From positions 41,049 to 105,048 of the forward strand of contig JBLMYT010000061.1 of NCBI GenBank assembly GCA_050258455.1: a DNA stretch of 64,000 nt, read 5' to 3'. A program made the translations under genes and the position numbers. The stretch is from Candidatus Omnitrophota bacterium (lineage in GTDB: Bacteria > Acidobacteriota > Aminicenantia > UBA2199). Below the pieces are notes generated by a model. The model did not search any database and was not told the DNA's origin. It saw only the letters and a program-made list of their open reading frames with translations. Shown here piece by piece: positions 1 through 25,874 of the stretch; within the stretch, counting starts at the first letter, position 1; each line of letters starts with the position of its first letter.

Positions 1-3000
1 CGTCCTCCGTGCGCTCCGTGAGAAACTCAAATCTTGCTTATATCCTCTACACATCCGGTTCCACCGGGAAACCCAAAGGTGTCATGATCCAACATTCCAA
101 CGTCCTCCGACTGGTCATCCATCCCAATTACATCGAATGGAACCCCAATCACCGGCTCCTCCTCAGCGGAAACATCGTGTTCGATATCACGACCTTTGAA
201 ATCTGGGGACCTCTCCTCAATGGATTAAACCTCTTTTTAACCCATTCCGATACCTTCCTCGACAGCGAAAAACTCAAAACCTTCTTATTTCAGCACGCGA
301 TTAATATCCTCCACCTGGTCCCGGAACTCTTCAACCGCCTGGCCACATCATCCTTAGGATGCGCCATCTTCTCCGGTCTCGATTACTTCCTCATTGGCGG
401 CGATCGCGTCAATCCTCAATACGTGAATCTACTGAGAAACGAATGCCAAAAACTGAAAATCCTCCACATGTACGGTCCCACCGAAAATACCACATTCTCC
501 TCTTTCCACCCGGTTGAACACGCCTACCACACTGCTATTCCCATCGGAAAACCTTTAAACAATACATCCATCTATATTATCGATCAATCCGATCAACTCG
601 TTCCCCCCGGAATCATCGGCGAACTCTGCGTCAGCGGAGACGGCATCGCGTTAGGCTACTTAAATAATCCCGAAATGACGGCTGAAAGATATTGCCTCCG
701 GCGGCCAGGAACCTTTTTGAAAAAAGGTTCCTGGACCTCCAAAAACTTTTGGTTTGGGGAAAGAGGTTTTGAAAGAGTTTATAAGACCGGGGATTTAGCC
801 CGCTGGCTGGAGAATGGGGATGTGGAATTCCTGGGCCGAATCGATAAGCAACTCAAAATCCGCGGCCAACGCATCGAACCCGGCGAAATTGAGAACAGTT
901 TATTGAGACATCCCGAAATCAAAGAAGCCGCGATCATCATCCGAGAAAAAGGCGGCGAATCCTACCTGTGCGCGTATGTGATTTCCCACGATCCTGCCCA
1001 TGATCAAAATTCAAGAGAAATGAAAGAAAGAGAATTGAGAGCGTATCTTTCCTCTTTCCTCCCGGATTACATGGTGCCGTCTTATTTTATCTTCATCGAT
1101 CACATGCCACTAACTCCGAATGGGAAAATCGACCGAAATGCCCTGCCTTCTCCGGAAACCATGCCCGAGGAGACCTACACCGCGCCACGCGACAAGATCG
1201 AAACCCAACTGGCCCAATTATGGAAAGACGTATTAGGCTCCTCGCACGCCATCGGTATCGATGATAATTTCTTCCAACTGGGCGGCCACTCCCTCAAAGC
1301 CGCGATCCTCGTTTCCAAAATCCACAAAGAATTAAATGTCAAATTCCCCCTGGTAGAGATATTTAAGCACCCGTCTGTCAGAGACCTCTCCGCCTATATC
1401 AAACAGACCAAAGGTTCAACGTTTTCAAGCATCGAACCGACCGAAGAAAAAGAATATTATGCACTGTCGTCTGCCCAAAAACGGATGTTCGTCCTCAGCC
1501 AAATGGATGCCACCGGCACTACGTATAACATGCCCATGATTCTACCCCTGCAAAAAGAAAACGGAGAACATGTCGATAAAAATAAACTGGAAAACGCATT
1601 CAACGCATTAATTGCTCGACACGAAAGCTTGAGAACTTCGTTTCATACCATTCACGATGTACCGGTTCAAATCATTCACGAAAACGTGGATTTTGAGATC
1701 GATTATTATGATGTGTCTCTCACGGAGGGCACGGAGGACACGGGGCGCATGTCATCTCTCACGGGGCACACGGAGGACACGGAGCACACGGGGGCTATCG
1801 TCAAACGATTTATCCGACCATTCGATCTTTCAAACGCACCGCTTATCCGGTCCGGGTTAATCCATTTGCCGGATCAACCTCATGATATCTGGATGATCGA
1901 CCTTCATCACATCATATCGGACGGAACCTCGCATAATGTGTTGAGAACAGATTTTATAACCTTGCTCAACGGAGAGAAACCGGATCCCTTACGCCTTCAA
2001 TACAAAGATTTCGCCGAATGGCAAAACGCGTTAATTCAGAAGGGAGAATTAAACGCGCAGGAAAACTATTGGTTGGATCTATATTCGGATGCGTCTCAGC
2101 TCCAGGCATTGGAGCTTCCGACCGATTTTAAACGACCCGATGTATTTACCTTTGAAGGCGATAATCTGAGCTTCATGCTGGATCGTGAAGATGCCGGCAA
2201 ATTAAGAGATCTGGCATTCAAAAATGGCGGAACCTTATTCATGACGCTTTTATCCGTCTTTAATGTTCTTTTTTATAAGTACAGCGGTCAGGAAGATATT
2301 GTCATCGGTGCAGGCATATCGGGCCGCACGCATCATGATGTGCAGAACATTATCGGCATGTTTGTGAATACCCTGGCGACGCGAAACCACCCGCGCAAGA
2401 ATACGCCATACGAAACATTTTTAAAAGACGTGGTTGCCCGAACGTTTGACGCTTTTGAAAATCAGGATGTCCAGTTCGATGCATTGGTTGAGAAACTTGA
2501 CCTGGAACGCAACCCGTCGCGAAATCCGTTATTCGATGTGCTCATTGTCTTGCAAAATTTCGAAAAGGATTTCACCCATAATTCCATGGTCAAAAACAAT
2601 GATGATGATGATAATAATAATGATGATAGTGATAATTATAGAAATAACGTTTCCCGGTTTGATTTGACATTTTCCATTTATGAACCGGGAGAGGATATTT
2701 ACATCAATATTGAGTATTACACGGGTGTTTTCAAACGAGAAACCATTCTTCGTATGGTTTCCCATTTCCAAACGCTGACAAGAAATATATGCCAAAATCC
2801 CCATGCGCAATTAAAAGATTTCGATATCATGACCGAAGAGGAAAAGAATCATATCCTCTTTGATTTTAATGATACGGCATCGGAATATCCGGCGCATCGA
2901 ACCATTCATGAATTATTTGAGGATCAGGTACTCCGGTCTCCGGATCATCTTGCTCTTATCGGTTTGACTTCTGTAGGGGCGCTTCGAGAAGCGCCCATAC

Positions 3001-6000
3001 AAATGTCCTATGCGGAACTCAACAACCAATCGAATGCCCTGGCCGAAACGTTGAAAGAAAAAGGCGCTGTTTCCGGTGATATTATTGCGATTAAAATGGA
3101 ACGGTCGATCGATATGATTGTGGCATTACTCGGAATACTAAAAGCCGGGTGTGCGTATCTGCCGATTGAGGTGGGTTATCCGCAGGAACGCATCGATTAC
3201 ATGTTAAAGGATAGTAATGCTAAATTGTTATTAGCCACAGAGGACACGGAGGACACAGAGGTTTTTTCAGAACAGATGGAATTGGGGCGGATACACGGTG
3301 TTGATCTATACCGTAGGGGCGCACCCGTGTGTGCGCCCGATGCAATTTCGGTACGCGACGAATTGGGGCGTATACATGAGGTTGATTTATACCGTAGGGG
3401 CGCACCCGTGTGTGCGCCCGATGCAATTTCGGTACGCGACGAATTGGGGCAGATACATGGTGTTGATTTATATCGTAGGGGCGCACCCGTGTGTGCGCCC
3501 GGGCAGACACATGGGTCTGCCCCTACAATGAATTTTTCAAAAAATCATTCAAAATCTCCCTCCTCTGTGTCCTCTGTGACCTCTGTGGCTAAAAACTTAG
3601 ATCTTGCCTACATTATCTATACATCCGGTTCAACGGGAAAACCCAAAGGTGTCTTAACCATGCATCACAATGTCACGCGTGTTGTAAAGAATACCAATTA
3701 TATCGACATCAAACCCGACGATCGTATCCTTCAATTATCCAATGTTGCGTTTGACGGATCGGTATTTGATATTTTCGGCGCGCTTCTCAATGGTGCGGCA
3801 TTGGTGATGATGGGAACCGGCGGAATCGAAGTCGATCATTTAGCCGATCGAATTAAACGAGAGCAGGTCACGGTATTTTTTACCACCACTGCGTTATTTA
3901 ATACCATCGTGGATGTGCGTATCGATAGTTTGAAACACATTCGAAACGTGTTATTTGGTGGTGAGCGGGTATCGGTCGGGCATACGCGCCGGGCATTGGA
4001 CTATATGGGAAAAGGAAAGATCATCCACATGTATGGACCCACAGAAACAACGGTTTATGCGTCTTATTATGTTATCGATGAAATTGAAAACCAAGCGATC
4101 ACCATACCCATTGGGAAACCGCTTTCCAATACCTCGATTTACATCCTGGATCAAAGCATGAACCCCTTACCGGTGGGTGTTCAGGGAGAAATTTATATCG
4201 GAGGAAAAGGAAACGCTCGCGGGTATTTGAACAATCCAGAGTTAACAAGCGATACTTTTTTAAATACACCATTTAAAATAACCCAAACCAAAAGTTTTTG
4301 CCCCGCTTTTTACAAAAAGCGGGCCGCCGGAGGCATATTATACAAAAGTGGTGACCTGGCAAGATGGTTGCCGGATGGCAACATTGAATTTTTGGGGCGG
4401 GTGGATCATCAGGTGAAGATACGGGGTTTTCGAATCGAATTGGGAGAGATTGAAAGTCGATTGATTCAGCATGACGAAATTCATGAAGCCATTGTGATGG
4501 CGCGGGAGGACAAACGCGGCGATAAATATTTAGCCGGGTATTTTGTTTCGGACCGGGTGTTTGATTCCGAAGACATTCACCAATTAAAAGAGTACTTATT
4601 GTTAGAACTGCCGGAGTTTATGGTTCCGTCGTATTTGGTTCAGGTGGAACACATGCCCTTGAACTCGAGTGGCAAAATCGATTGGCGGAAGTTACCGGAT
4701 CCGCGCATCATGGGTGAGAACCTGAATGAGGAGCATCATGTCGGACCGAGAAATTCGATTGAACACCAATTGGTGAACATATGGGCGGAACTTTTGGACT
4801 GTGACCCGGAGCGAATCGGTATCGATTCGGACTTTTTTGCGTTGGGTGGGCAGTCACTCAAGGCTACGGTATTGATTTCCAGGATTCACCATGTTTTTGA
4901 CACGCGTTTAACATTGGCGCAAGTGTTTACGTCGCCTACGATTCGGTCGATTGCCGGGTTTATTCATGAATCGGAAAAAGAGAGATATGAGTCGATCGAA
5001 AAAACCGAAGAAAAAGAGTACTATGAACTTTCGGCGTCGCAGAAAGGGTTGTATATCATGTATCAGCTCGATCCCATGAGTTTGGCGTACAACATGCCGT
5101 TTTTCTTTCCGCTTGAAGACCATGCGGACATGAAGAAGATCGAGGATACGGTTCAGGCGTTGATCGACCGTCATGAAGCGTTCCGAACATCGTTTGTGAT
5201 GGTGAACGGGGAACCGAAACAGAAGATACACGAAAGCGTTGATTTTAAATTGGAAGTGGCGGAATGCAGCCGGGAAGAACTGGAAACGCCGGCGATGTTC
5301 AAACGTTCGTTTGATTTGGCAAAAGCCCCTCTCATTCGAGCGTCGGTGTTAAGATGTGAAGAGACGTTTTATTTCTTTGTGGACATGCATCACATTATTT
5401 CGGATGGTATTTCTCAGGAGATATTAAAGCATGAGTTTATGGTTTTATATGACGGAAAGTCTTTACCGACTCTCCATCTTGAATATAAGGATTATTCCGA
5501 ATGGCAGAACCGTACGTTATCCGATAAGGGAAGTTCGATTCAGCAACAGGAAGCGTTCTGGCTCAACGAGTTTAGCGATGGTGTGCCGGTATTGGCGTTC
5601 CCGTTGGATTTTCCCCGGCCGTTGGTTAAGAATTTCGCCGGTGAGATGATCCGATTTACCGTTAATGAAGTATTAAGTCAAAAAGTGAAAGTATTGGCTG
5701 TTGAGACCGGGAGTACGTTAAACTTTCTGTTATTCTCGATTTATTCCATATTGATCTCGCGGTATGCCAACCAGGATGATATTGTCATTGGTTCGCCGGT
5801 ATTTGGAAGAAAACATGGCGATTTGCAAAACGTCATCGGACTATTCGTGAATATGCTGGCGCTTCGCACCCAACCGGTTGGAGATATCACGTATCGAGAA
5901 TTTTTGCATCAGGTCAAAGAGAAGCTTGTCCTTGCCATGGAAAATCAGGAATATCATTTTGGATTATTGGCTTCCAAATTGGGGGTTCAGGGAAGTGCCG

Positions 6001-6374
6001 GGCGAAACCCGTTATTTGATTTTGTTTTCATGTTGGGGGATATGGACAGCGGTCAAACAGGAAAAGCAAAAACGCAGATCGTCAAACACGATTCTCCAGA
6101 CATGGACGAGAATGCATCCGATTCAGTGGATAGTATTCCGTTTGATATGATTTTGACGGCAATGGAAGCCGGGGATACGATTCAGATGCTATTGCGTTAT
6201 TCATCGGAGTTATTCAAACGATCAACCATCGAACTCTTTGGGGAACGTTATTTGGAAATATTGGAAACGGTCATTTCCAATCCCGGTATCCTGTTAAACG
6301 ATGTGGTTCTCTCGCACCGTTTACTGTCTGTGGAAGTGACCAATGATAAGAATGAAGGAGATTTCGGTTTTTAA
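1..6374 (+). CDS. Non-ribosomal peptide synthetase, 5'-truncated by window edge; domain order (A)-T-C-A-T-C
   Basis: Frame is open from nt 3. A motifs: LAYILYTSGSTGKPKG, YKTGDLARW, KIRGQRIEPGEIE, NGKIDR, with a second set LAYIIYTSGSTGKPKG..NSSGKIDW. T motifs: FFQLGGHSLKA and FFALGGQSLKA. C motifs: RHESLRTSF/HHIISDGTS and RHEAFRTSF/MHHIISDGIS. Ends in a C domain; no TE or R domain. Confidence 0.95.
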   Translation, partial: SSVRSVRNSNLAYILYTSGSTGKPKGVMIQHSNVLRLVIHPNYIEWNPNHRLLLSGNIVFDITTFEIWGPLLNGLNLFLTHSDTFLDSEKLKTFLFQHAINILHLVPELFNRLATSSLGCAIFSGLDYFLIGGDRVNPQYVNLLRNECQKLKILHMYGPTENTTFSSFHPVEHAYHTAIPIGKPLNNTSIYIIDQSDQLVPPGIIGELCVSGDGIALGYLNNPEMTAERYCLRRPGTFLKKGSWTSKNFWFGERGFERVYKTGDLARWLENGDVEFLGRIDKQLKIRGQRIEPGEIENSLLRHPEIKEAAIIIREKGGESYLCAYVISHDPAHDQNSREMKERELRAYLSSFLPDYMVPSYFIFIDHMPLTPNGKIDRNALPSPETMPEETYTAPRDKIETQLAQLWKDVLGSSHAIGIDDNFFQLGGHSLKAAILVSKIHKELNVKFPLVEIFKHPSVRDLSAYIKQTKGSTFSSIEPTEEKEYYALSSAQKRMFVLSQMDATGTTYNMPMILPLQKENGEHVDKNKLENAFNALIARHESLRTSFHTIHDVPVQIIHENVDFEIDYYDVSLTEGTEDTGRMSSLTGHTEDTEHTGAIVKRFIRPFDLSNAPLIRSGLIHLPDQPHDIWMIDLHHIISDGTSHNVLRTDFITLLNGEKPDPLRLQYKDFAEWQNALIQKGELNAQENYWLDLYSDASQLQALELPTDFKRPDVFTFEGDNLSFMLDREDAGKLRDLAFKNGGTLFMTLLSVFNVLFYKYSGQEDIVIGAGISGRTHHDVQNIIGMFVNTLATRNHPRKNTPYETFLKDVVARTFDAFENQDVQFDALVEKLDLERNPSRNPLFDVLIVLQNFEKDFTHNSMVKNNDDDDNNNDDSDNYRNNVSRFDLTFSIYEPGEDIYINIEYYTGVFKRETILRMVSHFQTLTRNICQNPHAQLKDFDIMTEEEKNHILFDFNDTASEYPAHRTIHELFEDQVLRSPDHLALIGLTSVGALREAPIQMSYAELNNQSNALAETLKEKGAVSGDIIAIKMERSIDMIVALLGILKAGCAYLPIEVGYPQERIDYMLKDSNAKLLLATEDTEDTEVFSEQMELGRIHGVDLYRRGAPVCAPDAISVRDELGRIHEVDLYRRGAPVCAPDAISVRDELGQIHGVDLYRRGAPVCAPGQTHGSAPTMNFSKNHSKSPSSVSSVTSVAKNLDLAYIIYTSGSTGKPKGVLTMHHNVTRVVKNTNYIDIKPDDRILQLSNVAFDGSVFDIFGALLNGAALVMMGTGGIEVDHLADRIKREQVTVFFTTTALFNTIVDVRIDSLKHIRNVLFGGERVSVGHTRRALDYMGKGKIIHMYGPTETTVYASYYVIDEIENQAITIPIGKPLSNTSIYILDQSMNPLPVGVQGEIYIGGKGNARGYLNNPELTSDTFLNTPFKITQTKSFCPAFYKKRAAGGILYKSGDLARWLPDGNIEFLGRVDHQVKIRGFRIELGEIESRLIQHDEIHEAIVMAREDKRGDKYLAGYFVSDRVFDSEDIHQLKEYLLLELPEFMVPSYLVQVEHMPLNSSGKIDWRKLPDPRIMGENLNEEHHVGPRNSIEHQLVNIWAELLDCDPERIGIDSDFFALGGQSLKATVLISRIHHVFDTRLTLAQVFTSPTIRSIAGFIHESEKERYESIEKTEEKEYYELSASQKGLYIMYQLDPMSLAYNMPFFFPLEDHADMKKIEDTVQALIDRHEAFRTSFVMVNGEPKQKIHESVDFKLEVAECSREELETPAMFKRSFDLAKAPLIRASVLRCEETFYFFVDMHHIISDGISQEILKHEFMVLYDGKSLPTLHLEYKDYSEWQNRTLSDKGSSIQQQEAFWLNEFSDGVPVLAFPLDFPRPLVKNFAGEMIRFTVNEVLSQKVKVLAVETGSTLNFLLFSIYSILISRYANQDDIVIGSPVFGRKHGDLQNVIGLFVNMLALRTQPVGDITYREFLHQVKEKLVLAMENQEYHFGLLASKLGVQGSAGRNPLFDFVFMLGDMDSGQTGKAKTQIVKHDSPDMDENASDSVDSIPFDMILTAMEAGDTIQMLLRYSSELFKRSTIELFGERYLEILETVISNPGILLNDVVLSHRLLSVEVTNDKNEGDFGF
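695..750 (+). repeat. Hairpin element in A6-A7 loop (inverted orientation relative to the other three copies), translated in frame
   Basis: Perfect palindrome CCAGGAACCTTTTT-GA-AAAAAGGTTCCTGG at 705-734, flanked by CCTCCGGCGG and CAAAAACTTTT. The reverse complement aligns with copies at 4290, 20508 and 23883. Confidence 0.8.
1716..1792 (+). repeat. CACGGAGGA-type 9-mer array inside the C domain, in frame (LTEGTEDTG..LTGHTEDTEHTG)
   Basis: tctctcacggagggcacggaggacacgggg is followed 9 nt later by tctctcacggggcacacggaggacacggagcacacgggg. The same 9-mer forms the arms of the A2-A3 insertions. Confidence 0.7.
2977..2996. repeat. GGGCGCTTC-GA-GAAGCGCCC palindrome in the N-terminal A-domain region, in frame (VGALREAP)
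   Basis: Perfect 9-bp arms, followed by ATACAAA. Same hairpin + (C)TACAA flank family as 19270, 19306, 10603 and 14092. Confidence 0.8.
3233..3590 (+). repeat. MITE-like insertion bounded by ~29-bp imperfect inverted repeats, in frame between A2 and A3 motifs
   Basis: Left arm agccacagaggacacggaggacacagagg (3233-3261). Right arm cctctgtgtcctctgtgacctctgtggct (3562-3590). 27/29 match as reverse complements. Arms translate as TEDTEDTE and SSVSSVTSV. Confidence 0.7.
3279..3500 (+). repeat. 81-bp tandem repeat, ~2.7 copies, each carrying hairpin GGGCGCAC-CCGTGT-GTGCGCCC
   Basis: Units start at 3279, 3360 and 3441 and encode ELGRIHGVDLYRRGAPVCAPDAISVRD. The third unit runs into hairpin GGGCAGAC-ACATGG-GTCTGCCC (3501-3522). 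Confidence 0.85.
4290..4333 (+). repeat. Hairpin element in A6-A7 loop, in frame (KSFCPAFYKKRAAGG)
   Basis: AAAAGTTTTTG, then palindrome CCCGCTTTTT-AC-AAAAAGCGGG (4302-4323), then CCGCCGGAGG. Confidence 0.8.
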
Positions 6375-23700: not shown

Positions 23701-25874
23701 CTCAGACATCGATTTTTATTTTGGATCGTTATATGGACCTATTACCGGTAGGTGTGCAAGGTGAGGTTTATATCGGTGGCTTCGGACTGGCCAGAGGATA
23801 TTTAAACAATCCCGAACTAACAAGCGATAAATTTATTAATATAAATAAAAATATAAATAAACAACCAAACAATCCCCAAAATAAAAGTTTTTGGTCCCAC
23901 CTTTTTTCAAAAAGGTGGGCCGCCGGAGGCATTGTCTATAAAACGGGGGATTTAGGACGATGGTTGCCGGATGGAGCGATTGAGTTCATGGGGAGAGTGG
24001 ATCATCAGGTGAAGATTCGGGGTTTTCGGATTGAATTGGGGGAAATTGAGAGCGTGTTGGTCAAGCATGAATCTGTTAAAGAAGCAGTGGTTGTTTCAAA
24101 GCAGGACCAGAAGGGGAGTCATCTGTATTTGATTGCTTATCTGGTCGGAGAACAAGAGCTAGAAGAGAAACAGATCAGGGAATACATGTCGAAGGAATGT
24201 CCGAGTCATATGATTCCCTCCTATTTTATTCCGGTTGAATCCTTTCCATTAACGCGAAATGGGAAGATCGATGTTGCTGCGTTACCGGAACCCGGGCAAA
24301 TGGCGAGCAAGAATTATGTGCCGCCTCAGAATGAAATCGAAGAAAAGTTAGCGGACATATGGTCTGAATTATTAAAAACGCAGCGCGATGTCATCGGCAT
24401 TGACGATAGTTTTTTTGAGTTGGGTGGGCATTCGTTAAAAGCGGCGCAATTGGTATCCCGGATGAAAAATGAATTGGATTCTTCCGTGACGCTTCCGGAA
24501 GTATTTAAAACGCCCACGATTCGGCAGTTGGCGGCGCGTGTTTCTGCCGGTTCGGATGAAAACATTGAAACCATACCGTTTGTCGAACAGAGAGAATATT
24601 ATCCCACATCTTATAGTCAACAGCGGATATGGAAGTTCCAGTCGAACCATCCCGGGAGTACGGCGTTCAGCCTTCACGAGCATATTCCGTTGAATCTTGA
24701 GGTTGATATCGATGTCATTCGACATGTTCTGGCCGAGTTAGCGAATCGGCATGAAAGTTTCCGAACCTGGTTTAAGGAAATCAACGGGGAACCCTTTCAG
24801 TTTATTGAACCGGTTGTAGAGATTCCCGTAGAAGTTATCGATATTTCATCCTTACCGGAAGAAGAGAGGGAAGCGGCCGTATCGAAAATTTATGATAATG
24901 TTGCCTTGAAACCGTTTGACCTTGGGCGTGCGCCATTGGTGGATGTCGTATTGGTAAAAAGGGAAAACCGGGTATGGGATTTCATATGGAATTTGCAGCA
25001 TATTATTACGGATGGGTATTCGCAGGACGTATTAAAAGATGAATTCATGGCGTTGTACACAGCCGCATTGGAAAAAAGACCTGCACCATTGGCGCCTATT
25101 TCCTTGACCTACAAAGATTTTGCCGTATGGCAGCGGCGCCGAGTCGGTCGTGCGGGAGACAAAGAAGAAGCGGTTCAATATTGGAAAACCAAACTCAAGG
25201 AAGGGTTTCCGGATCTTCGACTTCCGTTTGATTCGCGCCCGCCGTCGGATGACCTTCGGAGCATCCGGCTTCACACCTTTATACCTGAGAATATAAAAAC
25301 GGGTTTGGAAAAAATTATTGAAAAGCATCATTATACGCTGTTTATGGTATTACTGACCGCGTTTAATCTGGCGTTGCATCGATTGACCGGGCAGACCGAA
25401 ATTGCGCTCCGGGTTGTGAATGCCGGAAGGGAACGTCCTGAATTGCAACCGTTAATTGGGTATTTTGTTCACCCGGCGGTGGTCAAAAGCACGGTTGAAG
25501 GCGATGAACCGTTTATTGAGTTATTAACGCGAACGGCTGATAATGCCTTAAAGGTATTTCAATACCAATGGTATCCGTTGGAAGAAGCGGCCCGGGATTT
25601 GGGGATGAAAACACCGAACCTGTATATCTCTTTTAATATGCAAAACATCAGTGAAAGTCGGATTGATGCGGATGTAGACGTGAAAGAACCGTATATTACG
25701 GAGGATGAGAAGATAAAGGCCAAGTATCCGTTGAATGTACGGTTGATTGCGTATCGGAATTGCATTGGGGTTGTATGGGAAGCCCAAAAAGTGTTATTCA
25801 AGCCGCAAACGTTAAGAAAAATATTTGATGCGTATTTGGACGCGTTGGCAATCGCGGTTGGCGAAAAACCATAA
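17733..25874 (+). CDS. Non-ribosomal peptide synthetase, C-A-T-C-A-T-C
   Basis: C motifs: HHAIIDGWS, MHHIISDGVS (nt ~21643-21672), LQHIITDGYS (nt ~24992-25021). Two A domains: LAYVIYTSGSTGKPKG, YKTGDLGRW, KIRGFRIELGEIE, NGKIDV. Two T domains: FFELGGHSLKA. No TE or R domain. Confidence 0.95.
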   Translation: MSATKLPQDFEDLYPLTDIQKGMLFHSFSDSDRFVYYVVNVYYLNFKDFDANLFRRVFDLMVEKHSILRTGFNMHDFKEPVQIVYKTIIPDIVHHDISSMGKTEQDAYLERLISTEKTTAFDVLNAKALWRMRTVSLEGDRICFIWVAHHAIIDGWSFASLMTEVDNTYIRLKTDINFVPPKLRATYKHYVADQLAEKKKPENILFWKAELDDYKRLHFPGSSSITHESGRKMALTKDFDSGFSKRLTDVARTYNTSLKHLFFGAYVYMLSMLSYENDIVVGLITNCRPGFPDAEKIIGCFLNTVPVRLKIPAGLRWKDYILMVEAKLREIKKYDRYSFFEIVRTIGEMTQNQNPICDTIFNFTDFHVYDQMELGTSASSGPDHPMHDNHTDNGYRLLVLETDGTNTLFDFTISNSGGNFNLLLNFGEALVCSESAIALCRYFEKILYKFIEEPDCMISKEALITDEEKETLLFHFNRAGADDPSEKTISELFEDQALRSPDHLALIGSTSVGALREAPLKKSYWAVREPPLQMTYRELNERCNALTFKLMQQGVGPDSIVGIKMERSIEMIIGIMGILKAGGAYLPIDPSYPQERIDYMLNDSRAGLFLTGDTEVTENASGVFSEQVELGRIHVVDLFRRGAPACAPGQTHGSAPTENLPEYLNQASFPSVNSVSSVRNSNLAYVIYTSGSTGKPKGVLTMHRNVVRVVKNTNYIDIQPEDRVLQLSNVAFDGSVFDIYGALLNGACLVMIGKDEVIEIDRLARVIRQEQVTVFFSTTALFNTLVELRIDSLNRIRKVLFGGERVSIEHSRKALEYLGKGRIIHVYGPTETTVYASYYPIDEIKEKAMTIPIGKPLTQTSMFVLDRYMDLLPVGVQGEVYIGGFGLARGYLNNPELTAEKFIGCRLPVAGNLFPNQNNLNPPQNKSFWSHLFSKRWAAGGIVYKTGDLGRWLLDGSIEFMGRVDHQVKIRGFRIELGEIESVLIKHESVNEAMVVSKQDQKGSHLYLIAYLVVEQEIEEKRIREYMAKECPSYMIPSYFIQVESFPLTPNGKIDVKSLPQPDHASISTCNYVAPRDEIEKKLSDIWGEVLGIPNDRIGIEDNFFELGGHSLKATTMAAKIHKSLDIRISLGQVFKNPSIRGISEFIRGMQRNRFSSIEPVEMKEYYVLSSPQKRMYVLQQMEPGSVFYNIPEFIPMAGEVDIDRLEKVFQLLIQRHESLRTSFHMMGEEPVQKVHGNVEFRIELFLTVHTEDAEGEKKKLRSGEDEKLSIAERFIKRFDLAKAPLMRVGLLKGEKDYLLMIDMHHIISDGVSREVLKRDFVSIYNGEDLSPLRIQYKDFAEWQSGNSEREKRNQQEAYWVNEFEGEIPVLNITLDYPRPAVQSFEGSTFGFELDVEDIKGIRSIIKEENATIFMVLLAAYNILFMKLSGQEDVIIGTPVAGRVHADLEKIIGMFVNTLALRNYPAGEKTFRGFLRELKQQTLAAFENQEYYFEDLVERIALSRDVARNPLFDVMFALQNMGSDSVDASKTDENGGQESDSLYEGKTSKFDMTLHGVETGNRLLFKIEYCTRLFKRETIERFSRYFKQIISHGVKFPEDRLSDIVILTEEEKHRLLVEFNESGTDNPSDKTIPELFEDEVEKGPDRLAVVHSVVKITYKQLNEQSNVLAGILQEKGVGADTIVGIRMERSVELIIGILGILKAGGAYLPIDPSYPQERIDYMLNDSRAKLLLATEDTEFTEKIGGEVNFLFAAKEAEDNYRINIKYRINIKLIDGDSYQPSSYQSSSYPSSSYSSSPYPSFFSSVSSVNSVAKNLAYVIYTSGSTGKPKGVLTMHRNVVRVVKNTNYIDIQPEDRVLQLSNYAFDGSVFDIYGALLNGACLVMIGKDELIEMDRLARVIRQEQVTVFFSTTALFNTLVELRIDSLNRVRKVLFGGERVSIEHSRKASEHLGKGRIIHVYGPTETTVYASYYPIDEIKEKAVTVPIGMPLTQTSIFILDRYMDLLPVGVQGEVYIGGFGLARGYLNNPELTSDKFININKNINKQPNNPQNKSFWSHLFSKRWAAGGIVYKTGDLGRWLPDGAIEFMGRVDHQVKIRGFRIELGEIESVLVKHESVKEAVVVSKQDQKGSHLYLIAYLVGEQELEEKQIREYMSKECPSHMIPSYFIPVESFPLTRNGKIDVAALPEPGQMASKNYVPPQNEIEEKLADIWSELLKTQRDVIGIDDSFFELGGHSLKAAQLVSRMKNELDSSVTLPEVFKTPTIRQLAARVSAGSDENIETIPFVEQREYYPTSYSQQRIWKFQSNHPGSTAFSLHEHIPLNLEVDIDVIRHVLAELANRHESFRTWFKEINGEPFQFIEPVVEIPVEVIDISSLPEEEREAAVSKIYDNVALKPFDLGRAPLVDVVLVKRENRVWDFIWNLQHIITDGYSQDVLKDEFMALYTAALEKRPAPLAPISLTYKDFAVWQRRRVGRAGDKEEAVQYWKTKLKEGFPDLRLPFDSRPPSDDLRSIRLHTFIPENIKTGLEKIIEKHHYTLFMVLLTAFNLALHRLTGQTEIALRVVNAGRERPELQPLIGYFVHPAVVKSTVEGDEPFIELLTRTADNALKVFQYQWYPLEEAARDLGMKTPNLYISFNMQNISESRIDADVDVKEPYITEDEKIKAKYPLNVRLIAYRNCIGVVWEAQKVLFKPQTLRKIFDAYLDALAIAVGEKP
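19270..19289. repeat. GGGCGCTTC-GA-GAAGCGCCC palindrome, in frame (VGALREAP)
   Basis: Identical core to 2977-2996. Confidence 0.8.
19306..19325. repeat. GGGCGGTTCG/CGAACCGCCC palindrome, in frame (WAVREPP), followed by CTACAAA
   Basis: Perfect 10-bp arms. Differs from the intergenic GGGCGATTCG/CGAATCGCCC by one compensated pair. Confidence 0.8.
19563..19768 (+). repeat. Inverted-repeat-bounded insertion between A2 and A3 motifs, in frame
   Basis: Arms: cacaggggacacggaggtcacggag (19563-19587) and cctctgtgaactccgtgtcctccgtgag (19741-19768). Interior holds GGGCGCAC..GTGCGCCC (19655-19676) and GGGCAGAC..GTCTGCCC (19677-19698). Confidence 0.7.
20508..20554 (+). repeat. Hairpin element in A6-A7 loop, in frame (KSFWSHLFSKRWAAGG)
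   Basis: AAAAGTTTTTGG, then palindrome CCCACCTTTTT-TC-AAAAAGGTGGG (20521-20544), then CCGCCGGAGG. Confidence 0.8.
21468..21501 (+). repeat. CACGGAGGA-type 9-mer run inside the C domain, in frame (LTVHTEDAEG)
   Basis: tttctcacggtgcacacggaggacgcggaggggg, at the same C-domain position as 1716-1792. Confidence 0.6.
22929..23167 (+). repeat. Inverted-repeat-bounded insertion between A2 and A3 motifs, in frame, with different cargo
   Basis: Arms: gccacagaggacacagagttcacagag (22929-22955) and cctctgtgtcctctgtgaactctgtggc (23140-23167). Cargo: an 18-bp repeat (RINIKYRINIK) and five 15-bp repeats at 23061-23135 (SYQPS SYQSS SYPSS SYSSS PYPSF). Confidence 0.7.
23883..23929 (+). repeat. Hairpin element in A6-A7 loop, in frame
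   Basis: Same sequence as 20508-20554. Palindrome at 23896-23919. Confidence 0.8.

What the first reader, a model, noticed from the sequence alone, without database searches (positions are those of the whole stretch)
3233..3590. MITE-like ~360-bp insertion bounded by 29-bp inverted repeats, kept in frame between A2 and A3 motifs
In insert-free A domains, roughly 45-60 aa separate LKAGxAYLPI..YPQERIDYML from LAYxIYTSGSTG. Here about 130 aa intervene.

The extra DNA is bracketed by agccacagaggacacggaggacacagagg and its near reverse complement cctctgtgtcctctgtgacctctgtggct (27/29). Both arms are short runs of a 9-mer (GAGGACACN / NGTGTCCTC), translated TEDTEDTE and SSVSSVTSV.

The window starts with the same right-arm motif (cctccgtgcgctccgtgag, nt ~4-22) just before the first LAYILYTSGSTG. 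So that A domain also appears to carry the insertion.

A 29-bp stem around a ~300-nt loop would be a strong mRNA structure inside a coding region. No stop codon occurs despite the palindromic, repetitive content.
Basis: partly seen in the sequence, partly recalled or inferred. Interest (0 to 1): 0.8.

Follow-up and report, generated by a model that had tools for sequence, protein, structure and literature searches.

The report
In-frame palindromic repeats inside NRPS genes
A 360-base stretch inside a peptide-synthetase gene is a nest of hairpin-forming repeat DNA that replaces a surface loop of the enzyme and is read through in frame; this kind of thing is known from Rickettsia and from REP elements, but I found no description of the outer hairpin's repeat family, which occurs in many phyla.

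Summary
Arms 3227-3261 and 3562-3596 are 35 nt long and 91% complementary. Each arm is about three tandem copies of CACRGAGGA. They sit in the A2-A3 linker of an NRPS adenylation domain, which is 132 aa here against about 48-50 aa in canonical domains.

"A MITE insertion" is only partly right. The stretch is a composite:
- The outer part is a foldback whose arms belong to a repeat family found in more than 120 loci of many phyla. Those copies are mostly intergenic and lie just after stop codons. They have no target-site duplication and no linked transposase.
- The loop holds GTAG-headed REP hairpins. One is an inverted REPIN-like doublet, and the unit is triplicated as an 81-bp tandem repeat. 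The same REPs lie in this window's intergenic spacers and in more than 112 loci elsewhere.

The same arms bracket the same loop in three more A domains here, with different interiors. Related NRPSs carry foldbacks with other tandem units (8-mer, 7-mer) at that loop.

Only the translated frame is stop-free, and all three insert lengths are multiples of three. The peptide has no homologues and is modelled at low confidence on an otherwise confident A-domain fold.

Best reading: tolerated, translated repeat DNA of the Rickettsia RPE / intragenic REP kind. Any function is untested.

The parts
3227..3261 (+). Left arm of the foldback: outer stem GTTATTAG plus about 3 tandem 9-mers CACRGAGGA. Translated (K)LLLATEDTEDTE; the outer part overlaps the conserved A-domain strand KLLLA.
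   Evidence: (I1)
3562..3596 (+). Right arm: about 3 tandem TCCTCTGTG units plus outer stem CTAAAAAC. Translated SSVSSVTSVAKN.
   Evidence: (I1)
3279..3521 (+). 81-bp tandem repeat, three units (3279-3359, 3360-3440, 3441-3521; the last is 75% identical because its 3' part is the inverted REP). Each unit is 27 codons, so the frame is kept.
   Evidence: (D1)
3313..3338 (+). GTAG-headed REP hairpin GTAGGGGCGCACCCGTGTGTGCGCCC. Further copies at 3394-3419 and 3475-3500. Read as RRGAPVCAP.
3501..3526 (-). Inverted partner REP (GTAGGGGCAGACCCATGTGTCTGCCC on the minus strand), abutting the REP at 3475-3500. Together they form a REPIN-like doublet. Read as GQTHGSAPT.
2..29 (+). Right-arm copy (GTCCTCCGTGCGCTCCGTGAGAAACTCA) just before A3 of the A domain that is cut by the window start.
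   Evidence: (I2, I4, I11)
19556..19772 (+). Same foldback in the A2-A3 linker of the first A domain of NRPS gene 2. Arms 19556-19586 / 19742-19772 (31 nt, 87%). The loop holds one unit homologous to the 81-bp unit, with a REPIN doublet at 19651-19676(+) / 19677-19702(-).
22923..23173 (+). Same arms in the second A domain of gene 2 (22923-22959 / 23137-23173, 37 nt, 84%), but with an unrelated AT-rich loop that includes a 15-bp tandem repeat at 23060-23131 (SSY repeats).
1716..1797 (+). Overlapping direct left-arm-type runs (1716-1749, 1755-1788, 1764-1797) in frame in a condensation domain (LTEGTEDTGRMSSLTGHTEDTEHTG), with no local partner arm. A decayed counterpart lies at 21477-21493 in gene 2.
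   Evidence: (D2)
2966..3007 (+). Another GTAG REP-type hairpin (GTAGGGGCGCTTCGAGAAGCGCCC), in frame before the A1 motif (SVGALREAPIQ). It is a 9-aa gap in LgrA. Counterparts in gene 2 at 19266-19290(+) and 19305-19329(-).
   Evidence: (I9)
693..758 (+). A second palindromic element in the loop before YKTGD (A7): TGCCTCCGGCGGCC - hairpin - CAAAAACTTTTGG. It is present in the opposite orientation at 4282-4335, 20508-20556 and 23883-23931, always in frame. The hairpin stem differs between copies with compensating changes.
   Evidence: (I6, I15, I16)

Best explanation
The 3227-3596 stretch is nested palindromic repeat DNA that occupies, and has replaced, the surface linker between core motifs A2 and A3 of an NRPS adenylation domain. 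It is translated straight through as a roughly 120-aa, mostly unstructured loop.

**Proposed history (inferred)**
1. A foldback with arms made of tandem CACRGAGGA units came to lie in this loop in an ancestral module. This repeat family normally sits in intergenic spacers just after stop codons, in many phyla.
2. Its arms were carried to the other modules by module duplication or gene conversion.
3. The loop of the foldback then turned over. In this copy it took up a GTAG-headed REP/REPIN of the kind that fills the neighbouring intergenic spacers. The REP-bearing unit was then triplicated as an 81-bp (27-codon) tandem repeat.

**Why it persists**
- The 9-mer has no stop codon in any of the six frames when R is A or G (shown).
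- Only variants that keep the frame survive (inferred).
- This loop, like the loop before A7 and the stretch before A1, tolerates extra residues (inferred).

**Likely effect (inferred)**
Probably neutral or nearly so. The enzyme keeps all its core motifs and its fold, with a floppy surface loop and a strong hairpin in its DNA and mRNA.

**Shown:** anatomy, family membership of the parts, frame conservation, absence of protein homology.
**Inferred:** order of events, tolerance, neutrality.
For: **Anatomy:**

**The arms belong to a dispersed family**
- CACNGAGGACACNGAGGACAC gives more than 120 loci in a species-representative genome set, against roughly 4 expected by chance from my own count.
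- 89 of the arm runs form hairpin pairs with loops of 12-430 nt.
- Of the 48 pairs with classifiable neighbouring ORFs (crude six-frame ORF calls), 31 are unidirectional, 13 convergent and 4 divergent. The median distance from a facing stop codon is 27 nt.

**The interior is this genome's own REP**
- The same GTAG hairpin types lie in intergenic spacers at 10774, 13904, 13987, 17467 and 17550.
- The exact 26-mer occurs in more than 112 loci elsewhere, often followed by the same inverted partner.

**Translation is maintained**
- Insert lengths are 360, 213 and 243 nt.
- Stops are 0 in the used frame and 1-9 in each of the other five frames.
- Only 23, 153 and 14 of 2000 dinucleotide shuffles are stop-free.
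- The host ORFs are intact over 2121+ and 2713 aa, with all A motifs present.

**It is not a protein domain:**

**It is a surface loop**
- In the AlphaFold2 model the A-domain core is mostly above pLDDT 90. Within the insert, residues 140-166 and 189-243 are below 50. A stretch around 169-187 is modelled as a weak strand and helix (block means 55 and 78). The A7-loop element (488-498) is also below 50.
- The alignment to LgrA (PDB 6mfy) has gaps exactly at the three palindromic elements.

**The loop is a hot spot**
- Relatives carry other tandem-unit foldbacks at the same loop: an 8-mer unit in L121 and a 7-mer unit in L300.
- L299 carries a near loop-less version of this same foldback.
- Firmicutes relatives have the canonical 66-67-aa spacing with no inverted repeat.

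**Independent in-frame case:** the same hairpin, in the same TEDTE..SSVSSV frame, sits inside a class-I aminoacyl-tRNA synthetase of a Tepidisphaeraceae MAG (L075).

**Precedent:** in-frame RPEs and intragenic GTAG/CGTC REPs encoding 20-82 aa are documented (PMC10969869; PMC3733652).
Against: - In this 64-kb window the 9-mer arms occur only inside the two NRPS genes (14 of 14 matches). None is intergenic, although REPs are. So there is no sign that the foldback is mobile in this genome now. An NRPS-specific role cannot be excluded.
- No insert-free orthologue was found. The closest A domains are only 62-68% identical and also have odd linkers. The insertion event itself is therefore inferred, not seen.
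- No target-site duplication and no transposase were found. The way the foldback family spreads is unknown.
- The near-identity of its arms across phyla is unexplained.
- Expression, translation and enzyme activity are untested.
- The source genome could not be found in the collections, so no genome-wide census was possible.
Confidence: 0.7

Rival explanations
1. The hairpins are kept because they do something for these very long genes. One possibility is that they provide portable homology or cruciform sites that promote exchange of the specificity-conferring Acore segment between modules. Another is that they act in the mRNA as internal stabilisers or translation pauses.
For: - Within the window the arms are NRPS-only.
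- The A2-A3 foldback and the A7-loop palindrome bracket the A3-A6 segment.
- Natural NRPS recombination mainly swaps variable parts of Acore (PMC8097286).
- Homology between two paralogous modules breaks exactly between the arms, and the interiors are unrelated.
- The A7-loop element occurs in both orientations at the same site, and its stem differs between copies with compensating changes.
- Several unrelated foldback families sit at the same loop in relatives.
- REPs are proposed mRNA stabilisers (PMC3733652).
Against: - No recombination tract bounded by the two repeat sites was seen. The 84%-identity tract between the gene-2 modules runs 1.3 kb from the right arm (19733-21074 against 23133-24443), which appears to reach well past the A7 loop. 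I did not map its end against the domain boundaries.
- Only three of the four arm-subtype and interior combinations exist, so the four-gamete test is not met.
- Stem mismatches show no G-U bias for the sense strand: 3 against 2 here and 116 against 127 across the family. This argues against RNA-level selection.
- The same repeats also sit in unrelated genes and in spacers.
Confidence: 0.15
2. The genes are decaying pseudogenes, or the region is an assembly artefact, so the repeats are simply junk in a dead or mis-built locus.
For: - The repeat density is unusual: 9 GTAG hairpins and 7 arm sites in two genes.
- The source is evidently an uncultured organism, and read support cannot be checked.
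Against: - The ORFs of 2121+ and 2713 aa are uninterrupted, with every domain and core motif scoring strongly.
- Every repeat is in frame. Only the used frame is open.
- The pattern recurs in four A domains here and in independent assemblies (L299, L121, L300, L075).
Confidence: 0.05
3. The insert is removed before the protein works, as an intron-like RNA excision at the stem, translational bypassing, or an intein.
For: A 35-bp stem brings the two flanks together.
Against: - Removal would lift the need for an open frame. Yet all three inserts are multiples of 3 and are stop-free only in the used frame.
- There is no Rfam family at gathering threshold or at E<=1 other than a chance miRNA hit.
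- There is no Hint or intein domain.
- The flanking residues are not intein-like.
Confidence: 0.03
4. It is a genuine auxiliary protein subdomain, making this an 'interrupted' A domain like those that carry embedded methyltransferases.
For: From my own knowledge, interrupted A domains with extra domains between core motifs exist.
Against: - No Pfam family beyond AMP-binding.
- No homologue at E<=1e-3 in 5.8 billion proteins.
- Low model confidence over most of the insert.
- The three paralogous inserts share only the arms.
- The sequence is built of DNA repeats that also lie in non-coding spacers.
Confidence: 0.02

Closest known systems
[quoted passage not shown] 2000, as summarised in PMC10969869)
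   Same: Palindromic repeat of about 100-150 bp or more, found in many copies. It is inserted in frame into unrelated genes, translated as an extra peptide, and thought to sit where the fold tolerates it.
   Different: - The host here is evidently not Rickettsia.
- The arms are tandem 9-mers.
- The loop is variable and itself colonised by REPs.
- No conserved RPE-type peptide is present.
- In this window the copies are confined to NRPS paralogues.
- Sequence similarity to RPE families was not tested.
GTAG-tagged REPs / REPINs, including intragenic ones (Di Nocera et al. 2013, PMC3733652; Bertels & Rainey 2011, PMC3116915)
   Same: The interior hairpins have the GTAG head and a 20-40-nt GC-rich palindrome. 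They form inverted doublets and tandem reiteration together with flanking DNA. They are mainly extragenic, with some in-frame intragenic copies encoding tens of residues.
   Different: - No RAYT gene was seen.
- The copies here are nested inside another palindrome.
- The exact 26-mer is shared by very distant phyla. The RAREFAN preprint abstract (10.1101/2022.05.22.493013, listed) describes REPIN-RAYT systems as mostly vertically inherited.
Bacterial MITEs (PMC10969869)
   Same: Small, non-coding, multi-copy, with terminal inverted repeats. In-frame fusions with host ORFs are known.
   Different: - No target-site duplication.
- No cognate IS or transposase.
- Loop length varies from 12 to 430 nt while only the arms are conserved.
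- The arms are internally tandem-repetitive.
Foldback (FB) transposons of eukaryotes (from my own knowledge, not tested)
   Same: Long inverted arms built of short tandem repeats around a variable middle.
   Different: Those are eukaryotic, much larger, and associated with a transposase in some copies. No homology is implied.
Coding palindromes in Nematomorpha mitochondrial genes (PMC6649704, abstract seen)
   Same: Long inverted repeats embedded in protein-coding sequence, with both arms translated.
   Different: Those are perfect, gene-internal palindromes in mitochondria. They are not members of a dispersed cross-genome repeat family.
Interrupted adenylation domains (from my own knowledge)
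   Same: Extra residues between A-domain core motifs.
   Different: Those carry folded, conserved catalytic domains. This insert has no domain, no homologues and low predicted order.

Membership tests
MITE | Terminal inverted repeats | tested here: met
   35-nt arms, 91% complementary. 31 nt at 87% and 37 nt at 84% in the two paralogous copies.
MITE | Small size and no transposase ORF inside | tested here: met
   The element is 370 nt. Its only open frame is the host gene's, and there is no Pfam domain.
MITE | Target-site duplication flanking the element | tested here: not met
   Across 48 elements, 2-bp direct repeats flank 2 and 3-bp direct repeats flank 2. Instead the flanks continue the palindrome (47 of 48 at the first base, 27 of 48 at two bases). 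In the window a TA on each side cannot be told apart from palindrome extension.
MITE | Multiple dispersed copies in the same genome | tested here: inconclusive
   There are 7 arm sites in the window, but all lie in two NRPS genes and are explainable by module duplication. The rest of the genome was not available. Other genomes do hold several dispersed copies (for example CAYNFN01, and L056).
MITE | A parent IS or transposase with the same ends | tested here: not met
   No protein family recurs beside the elements in 120 loci, apart from common regulators and ABC ATPases. Only about 4 kb on each side was examined.
GTAG REP / REPIN (interior hairpins) | 20-40-nt imperfect palindrome with a terminal GTAG | tested here: met
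   GTAGGGGCGCACCCGTGTGTGCGCCC occurs three times, plus an inverted GTAGGGGCAGACCCATGTGTCTGCCC.
GTAG REP / REPIN (interior hairpins) | Repeated, mainly extragenic copies | tested here: met
   5 intergenic copies lie within 20 kb of the window. More than 112 loci elsewhere hold the exact 26-mer; the flanks were viewed but not classified as coding or non-coding. The copy number in the source genome is unknown.
GTAG REP / REPIN (interior hairpins) | Inverted doublets (REPIN / BIME-like) | tested here: met
   3475-3500(+) / 3501-3526(-) and 19651-19676(+) / 19677-19702(-). The same two-type doublet recurs across phyla.
GTAG REP / REPIN (interior hairpins) | A cognate RAYT (TnpA-REP) gene in the genome | not testable with these tools
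   None of the 22 window ORFs scanned against Pfam showed a Y1 transposase domain; the smaller ORFs were not scanned. The rest of the genome is not available.
Rickettsia palindromic elements | In-frame insertion into unrelated ORFs, with translation | tested here: met
   For the in-frame part: NRPS A and C domains here, and a class-I aaRS in L075. Translation itself was not tested.
Rickettsia palindromic elements | Sequence membership in an RPE family; Rickettsia host | not tested
   No RPE sequences were compared. The gene content (NRPS, WD40, sigma-54 activator) and 46% G+C do not suggest Rickettsia.
Interrupted A domain | A folded auxiliary domain with a recognisable family signature between core motifs | tested here: not met
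   No Pfam hit, no homologues, and pLDDT below 50 over most of the insert.
Intein / intron | Hint domain with splice-junction residues, or a known self-splicing RNA fold | tested here: not met
   No Hint domain. No Rfam match. Frame conservation argues for read-through.

The most novel reading that the evidence does not exclude
The outer hairpin may represent an undescribed class of prokaryotic repeat: foldbacks whose arms are short tandem units. Here the unit is CACRGAGGA. Sister types with 8-mer and 7-mer units sit at the same NRPS loop. These repeats are free of stop codons in all six frames and keep near-identical arms across bacterial phyla and at least one archaeal MAG. In NRPS genes they, together with the A7-loop palindrome, may act as built-in recombination or cruciform sites that flank the specificity-determining Acore segment and drive module diversification.
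Probability: 0.12. Interest if true: 0.85.

Novelty: new variant of a known kind. Interest (0 to 1): 0.55.

Why it matters
**NRPS biology.** The A2-A3 linker (normally a helix-strand unit), the loop before A7 and the stretch before A1 can be replaced or extended by 10-120 residues of arbitrary repeat-encoded sequence while every core motif stays intact. If activity is confirmed, that is practical information about permissive sites for engineering.

**Mobile DNA.**
- It adds a large multi-module enzyme family to the short list of genes that carry translated palindromic repeats.
- It shows nesting (a REPIN inside a foldback loop inside a gene).
- It points to a tandem-9-mer foldback family, and to a GTAG REP 26-mer, that are shared almost unchanged by very distant phyla. 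The view that such repeats are lineage-bound does not explain this.

**Annotation.** Peptides such as TEDTEDTE, SSVSSV, RRGAPVCAP and GQTHGSAPT in predicted proteins are signatures of translated repeats, not of protein families.

Tried and rejected
- **Known RNA family.** None at gathering threshold in the window or in ten hairpin loci. Only a chance miRNA hit at E = 0.34 in 3100-3700.
- **Literature on the arm sequence.** No paper holds either strand of the two-unit motif. No paper links NRPS, MITEs and in-frame insertion in bacteria.
- **Source genome.** The exact protein look-up failed. The NRPS finds at best 65-68% identity, to a Candidatus Deferrimicrobium MAG. CinA finds at most 38%. The organism stays unplaced and no genome-wide count was possible.
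- **Same arm-plus-A3 junction in metagenomes.** The strict pattern gave 0 hits. One call was lost to a syntax rule. The relaxed pattern gave 1 hit, L299.
- **Insert-free orthologue.** None found. The closest relatives have other odd linkers.
- **RNA-level selection.** There is no excess of G-U over A-C mismatches on either strand.
- **Transposase neighbour.** No enriched family.
- **Target-site duplications.** Absent.
- **Remnant of the native linker inside the loop.** AlphaFold2 drew a weak strand and helix on one 27-aa unit (residues 169-187; block pLDDT means 55 and 78). I do not rely on this.
- **Look-up and tool failures.** P0004 was not on record. The L301 DNA did not translate to its query and could not be read by the script. 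Two tool calls failed on syntax.
Full report
**1. What is at 3233-3590**

The window opens inside a non-ribosomal peptide synthetase gene. The frame is open from base 3 to the stop at 6374. The domain order is A(cut)-T-C-A-T-C. A second NRPS gene lies at 17733-25874 with the order C-A-T-C-A-T-C.

The finding lies in the second A domain of the first gene, between LKAGCAYLPIEVGYPQERIDYML (A2) and LAYIIYTSGSTG (A3).

They extend to 35 nt (3227-3261 / 3562-3596) at 91% complementarity, 300 nt apart.
- Each arm is about three tandem 9-mers: CACAGAGGA, or TCCTCTGTG on the right side.
- The distance from YML to LAY is 132 aa. It is about 48 aa in canonical relatives and about 50 aa in LgrA.
- The motif is far above chance: 12 matches against 0.19 expected.
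- Predicted folding pairs the two arms around the interior (z = -9.0). The antisense strand folds as well (z = -8.9).

**2. The interior is also repeat DNA**

Between the arms lies an 81-bp unit repeated 2.8 times (3279-3501, 92% matches). Each unit carries GTAGGGGCGCACCCGTGTGTGCGCCC, a GC-rich hairpin with a GTAG head (3313, 3394, 3475). The last copy abuts an inverted second type, GTAGGGGCAGACCCATGTGTCTGCCC on the minus strand at 3501-3526. The two differ by a compensated stem change.

This is the anatomy of GTAG-tagged REPs and REPIN/BIME-type doublets (PMC3733652; titles and abstracts).

- The same hairpin types lie in this window's intergenic spacers at 10774, 13904, 13987, 17467 and 17550.
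- The exact 26-mer occurs in more than 112 loci of the species-representative genome set. These come from Chloroflexota, several deltaproteobacterial lineages, Ruminococcus and other Clostridia, Bacteroidales, Planctomycetota, Omnitrophota, Glassbacteria and others.
- It is often followed after 0-30 nt by the same inverted partner type.

**3. The arms belong to a widespread foldback family**

My own estimate of the chance expectation is about 4. Nearly all are outside NRPS genes.

The hosts include Burkholderiales, other Proteobacteria, Acidobacteriota, Planctomycetota (including Candidatus Kuenenia and the isolate Lacipirellula limnantheis), Verrucomicrobiota, Chloroflexota, Bacteroidota (including a complete Bacteroides hominis genome), Gemmatimonadota and a Thermoplasmata archaeon MAG.

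- 89 arm runs form left/right pairs with loops of 12-430 nt (median loop 44 nt).
- Of the 48 pairs with classifiable neighbouring ORFs, 31 lie between unidirectional ORFs, 13 between convergent and 4 between divergent. The ORF calls are crude six-frame calls. The median distance from a facing stop codon is 27 nt. That is the distribution reported for REPs (PMC3733652).
- The palindrome continues beyond the 9-mers into a variable outer stem. TTCACCAC...GTGGTGAA is the commonest form; TTAGCCAC...GTGGCTAA is the form here.
- There are no flanking direct repeats.
- No protein family recurs next to the elements.
- There is no Rfam family and no paper containing the sequence.
- Mismatches in the stems show no G-U bias for either strand (116 against 127). 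Nothing therefore points to an RNA-level constraint.

**4. The same thing elsewhere in these genes**

The same arms bracket the A2-A3 linker of both A domains of gene 2.

| Copy | Arms | Loop content |
|---|---|---|
| Gene 2, first A domain | 19556-19586 / 19742-19772 (87%) | One unit homologous to the 81-bp unit, with the same REPIN doublet |
| Gene 2, second A domain | 22923-22959 / 23137-23173 (84%) | Unrelated AT-rich loop with a 15-bp tandem repeat |
| Gene 1, cut A domain | Right arm only, at 2-29 | Cut off by the window start |

- Left-arm-type runs without a partner sit in frame in the C domains at 1716-1797 and 21477-21493.
- Homology between the two gene-2 modules (80-84%) runs up to and through the arms and breaks between them.
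- All 14 arm matches in the window are inside the two NRPS genes.
- Of 14 GTAG hairpins, 9 are in the NRPS genes, 5 are intergenic and none is in the other roughly 34 ORFs.

Two further in-frame palindromes are present.

- A REP-type hairpin lies before A1 (2966-3007; SVGALREAPIQ).
- A roughly 60-nt element lies in the loop before YKTGD. It sits in one orientation at 693-758 and in the other at 4282-4335, 20508-20556 and 23883-23931. Its hairpin stem differs between copies with compensating changes.

**5. Is it translated, and what does the protein look like?**

- The three complete inserts are 360, 213 and 243 nt long.
- Each has no stop in the gene's frame and 1-9 stops in each of the other five frames.
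- Only 23, 153 and 14 of 2000 dinucleotide-preserving shuffles are stop-free.
- The 9-mer itself has no stop in any of the six frames when its variable base is A or G. This helps explain why it can sit in a gene.
- All A-domain core motifs are intact.
- The insert peptide finds nothing at E<=1e-3 among 5.8 billion proteins and no Pfam family.

An AlphaFold2 model of residues 945-1566 (window 2835-4700), built with 48 homologues, has mean pLDDT 82.9. The A-domain core is mostly above 90. Within the insert (model residues 134-253), residues 140-166 and 189-243 are below 50. A stretch around 169-187 is modelled as a weak strand and helix, which I do not rely on. The A7-loop element (488-498) is also below 50, and the block holding the pre-A1 hairpin dips to about 70.

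The alignment to LgrA (PDB 6mfy) has gaps in LgrA exactly at these three places.

No canonical linker residues (the TQ..L...LP.....V..LD... stretch) remain between KLLLA and NLDLAY. The repeat has therefore replaced the native helix-strand unit rather than being added to it.

**6. Relatives**

The closest A domains are 62-68% identical. They come from Candidatus Deferrimicrobium, Aminicenantes, Omnitrophota and Acidobacteriota MAGs. They have short, odd A2-A3 linkers. Firmicutes and cyanobacterial relatives have the canonical 60-69-aa spacing with no inverted repeat.

At the DNA level, two of the odd linkers are foldbacks with other tandem units.

- L121 has AAGGTGAG x4 facing CTTACCYT x4.
- L300 has AAATCCGAAATTCGAAATC facing GATTTCGGATTTCGGATTT at 95%.

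One metagenome contig (L299) carries this same 9-mer foldback at the same loop with almost no loop sequence and the identical right end, SVTSVAK. A stricter pattern found nothing.

The loop before A7 shows the same picture in relatives.

Outside NRPSs, the same hairpin sits in the same frame (TTEDTEDTE...SSVSSV) inside the catalytic domain of a class-I aminoacyl-tRNA synthetase in a Tepidisphaeraceae MAG (L075).

**7. Interpretation**

The best-supported reading is translated, tolerated repeat DNA. The shown facts are:
- the nested anatomy;
- the membership of both layers in dispersed repeat families;
- the conservation of the reading frame;
- the lack of any protein-level conservation.

The inferred history is as follows. 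A foldback entered this permissive loop in an ancestral module. It was copied with the modules. Its loop then turned over by REP/REPIN entry, an 81-bp triplication, or AT-rich slippage. A possible reason for loop entry, which is inference only, is that the loop of an extruded hairpin is single-stranded, and single-stranded DNA is the substrate of the HUH enzymes thought to move REPs.

The main rival is that the hairpins are kept for a purpose in these long genes, as recombination sites flanking the Acore segment or as mRNA structures. It has circumstantial support: the arms are NRPS-only in this window, different foldbacks hit the same loops repeatedly, and Acore is the natural recombination target (PMC8097286). 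No direct evidence for it was found.

A pseudogene or artefact, removal at the RNA or protein level, and a true protein subdomain are each contradicted by the frame statistics, the intact domains and the absence of any domain or RNA-family signal.

**8. Comparison with known systems and novelty**

In-frame palindromic repeats in genes are known: Rickettsia RPEs (PMC10969869) and intragenic GTAG/CGTC REPs encoding 20-82 aa (PMC3733652). The interior hairpins meet the sequence-level REP/REPIN criteria. The RAYT criterion could not be tested.

The outer foldback works like a REP or MITE but fails the MITE tests for target-site duplication and a parent transposase. I found no description of it.

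The new points are:
- the tandem-9-mer foldback family and its sister types;
- their recurrent, in-frame occupation of specific NRPS loops;
- the nesting;
- the near-identity of both repeat types across distant phyla, which remains unexplained.

I rate it a new variant of a known kind, of moderate interest.

Noticed in passing
window 693-758, 4282-4335, 20508-20556, 23883-23931: A roughly 60-nt palindromic element (TGCCTCCGGCGGCC - hairpin - CAAAAACTTTTGG) lies in frame in the loop before YKTGD of all four A domains. It is in one orientation in the first domain and the opposite orientation in the other three. The hairpin stem differs between copies with compensating changes. Related peptides (KSFW..FSKRWAAEG, FCGG..FSKEPPGRRR) occur at the same loop in NRPSs of other uncultured bacteria.
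   Followed up: partly
Genome-contig loci L164-L275: The exact 26-nt GTAG REP of the insert occurs in more than 112 loci from very distant phyla (Ruminococcus, Bacteroidales, Chloroflexota, deltaproteobacterial lineages, Planctomycetota, Glassbacteria, Omnitrophota). It is often paired with the same inverted partner type. Such cross-phylum identity of a REP is unexpected and unexplained.
   Followed up: partly
L075:2212-2292 (Tepidisphaeraceae MAG): The same 9-mer foldback is inserted in frame (TTEDTEDTEKKEELNSGLTSASSVSSV) in the catalytic domain of a class-I aminoacyl-tRNA synthetase, just before the conserved TTRPETMLGDT stretch.
   Followed up: partly
L010:2115-2177 (Dehalococcoidia MAG): Seven tandem 9-mers with no partner arm lie in frame (TEDTED x7) in an ORF that looks SecD-like from its N-terminal sequence. 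No domain search was run on it.
   Followed up: no
window 11552-11988, flanks 11440-11520 and 12005-12090, also 17420-17500: An intergenic array of about 21/43-nt units (AAGGAGCCAAACTTTTGGAACAAGGAGACCAACCATTGAACAG, 6.8 copies at 87%). It is flanked on both sides by a roughly 70-nt repeat (CCAGCAATTCGCATTCTG...CCACATCGAACACACGGG) that ends in a REP-type hairpin. It has no spacers, so it is not CRISPR-like. Its nature is unknown.
   Followed up: no
window 12131-13897 and 15667-17382: Two paralogous AAA-ATPase / PD-(D/E)XK (PDDEXK_9) genes. Each is followed by the same REP-laden spacer (13897-14231 and 17382-17733), so this is a local segmental duplication between the two NRPS genes.
   Followed up: no
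window 2590-2640: An in-frame Asn/Asp-rich low-complexity run (NNDDDDNNNDDSDN) made of 3-, 15- and 21-bp tandem repeats, inside the first C domain.
   Followed up: no
window 20441-20465: A 7-bp tandem repeat (CGGTTGC x3.6), translated in frame (GCRLPVAG), lies just upstream of the A7-loop palindrome of gene 2. This is another slippage-type insertion in the same loop.
   Followed up: no
window 1-26000 versus 26000-64000: All 14 GTAG hairpins and all 9-mer arms lie in the first 20 kb (the NRPS region and its spacers). None lies in the remaining 44 kb of ordinary genes and spacers.
   Followed up: partly
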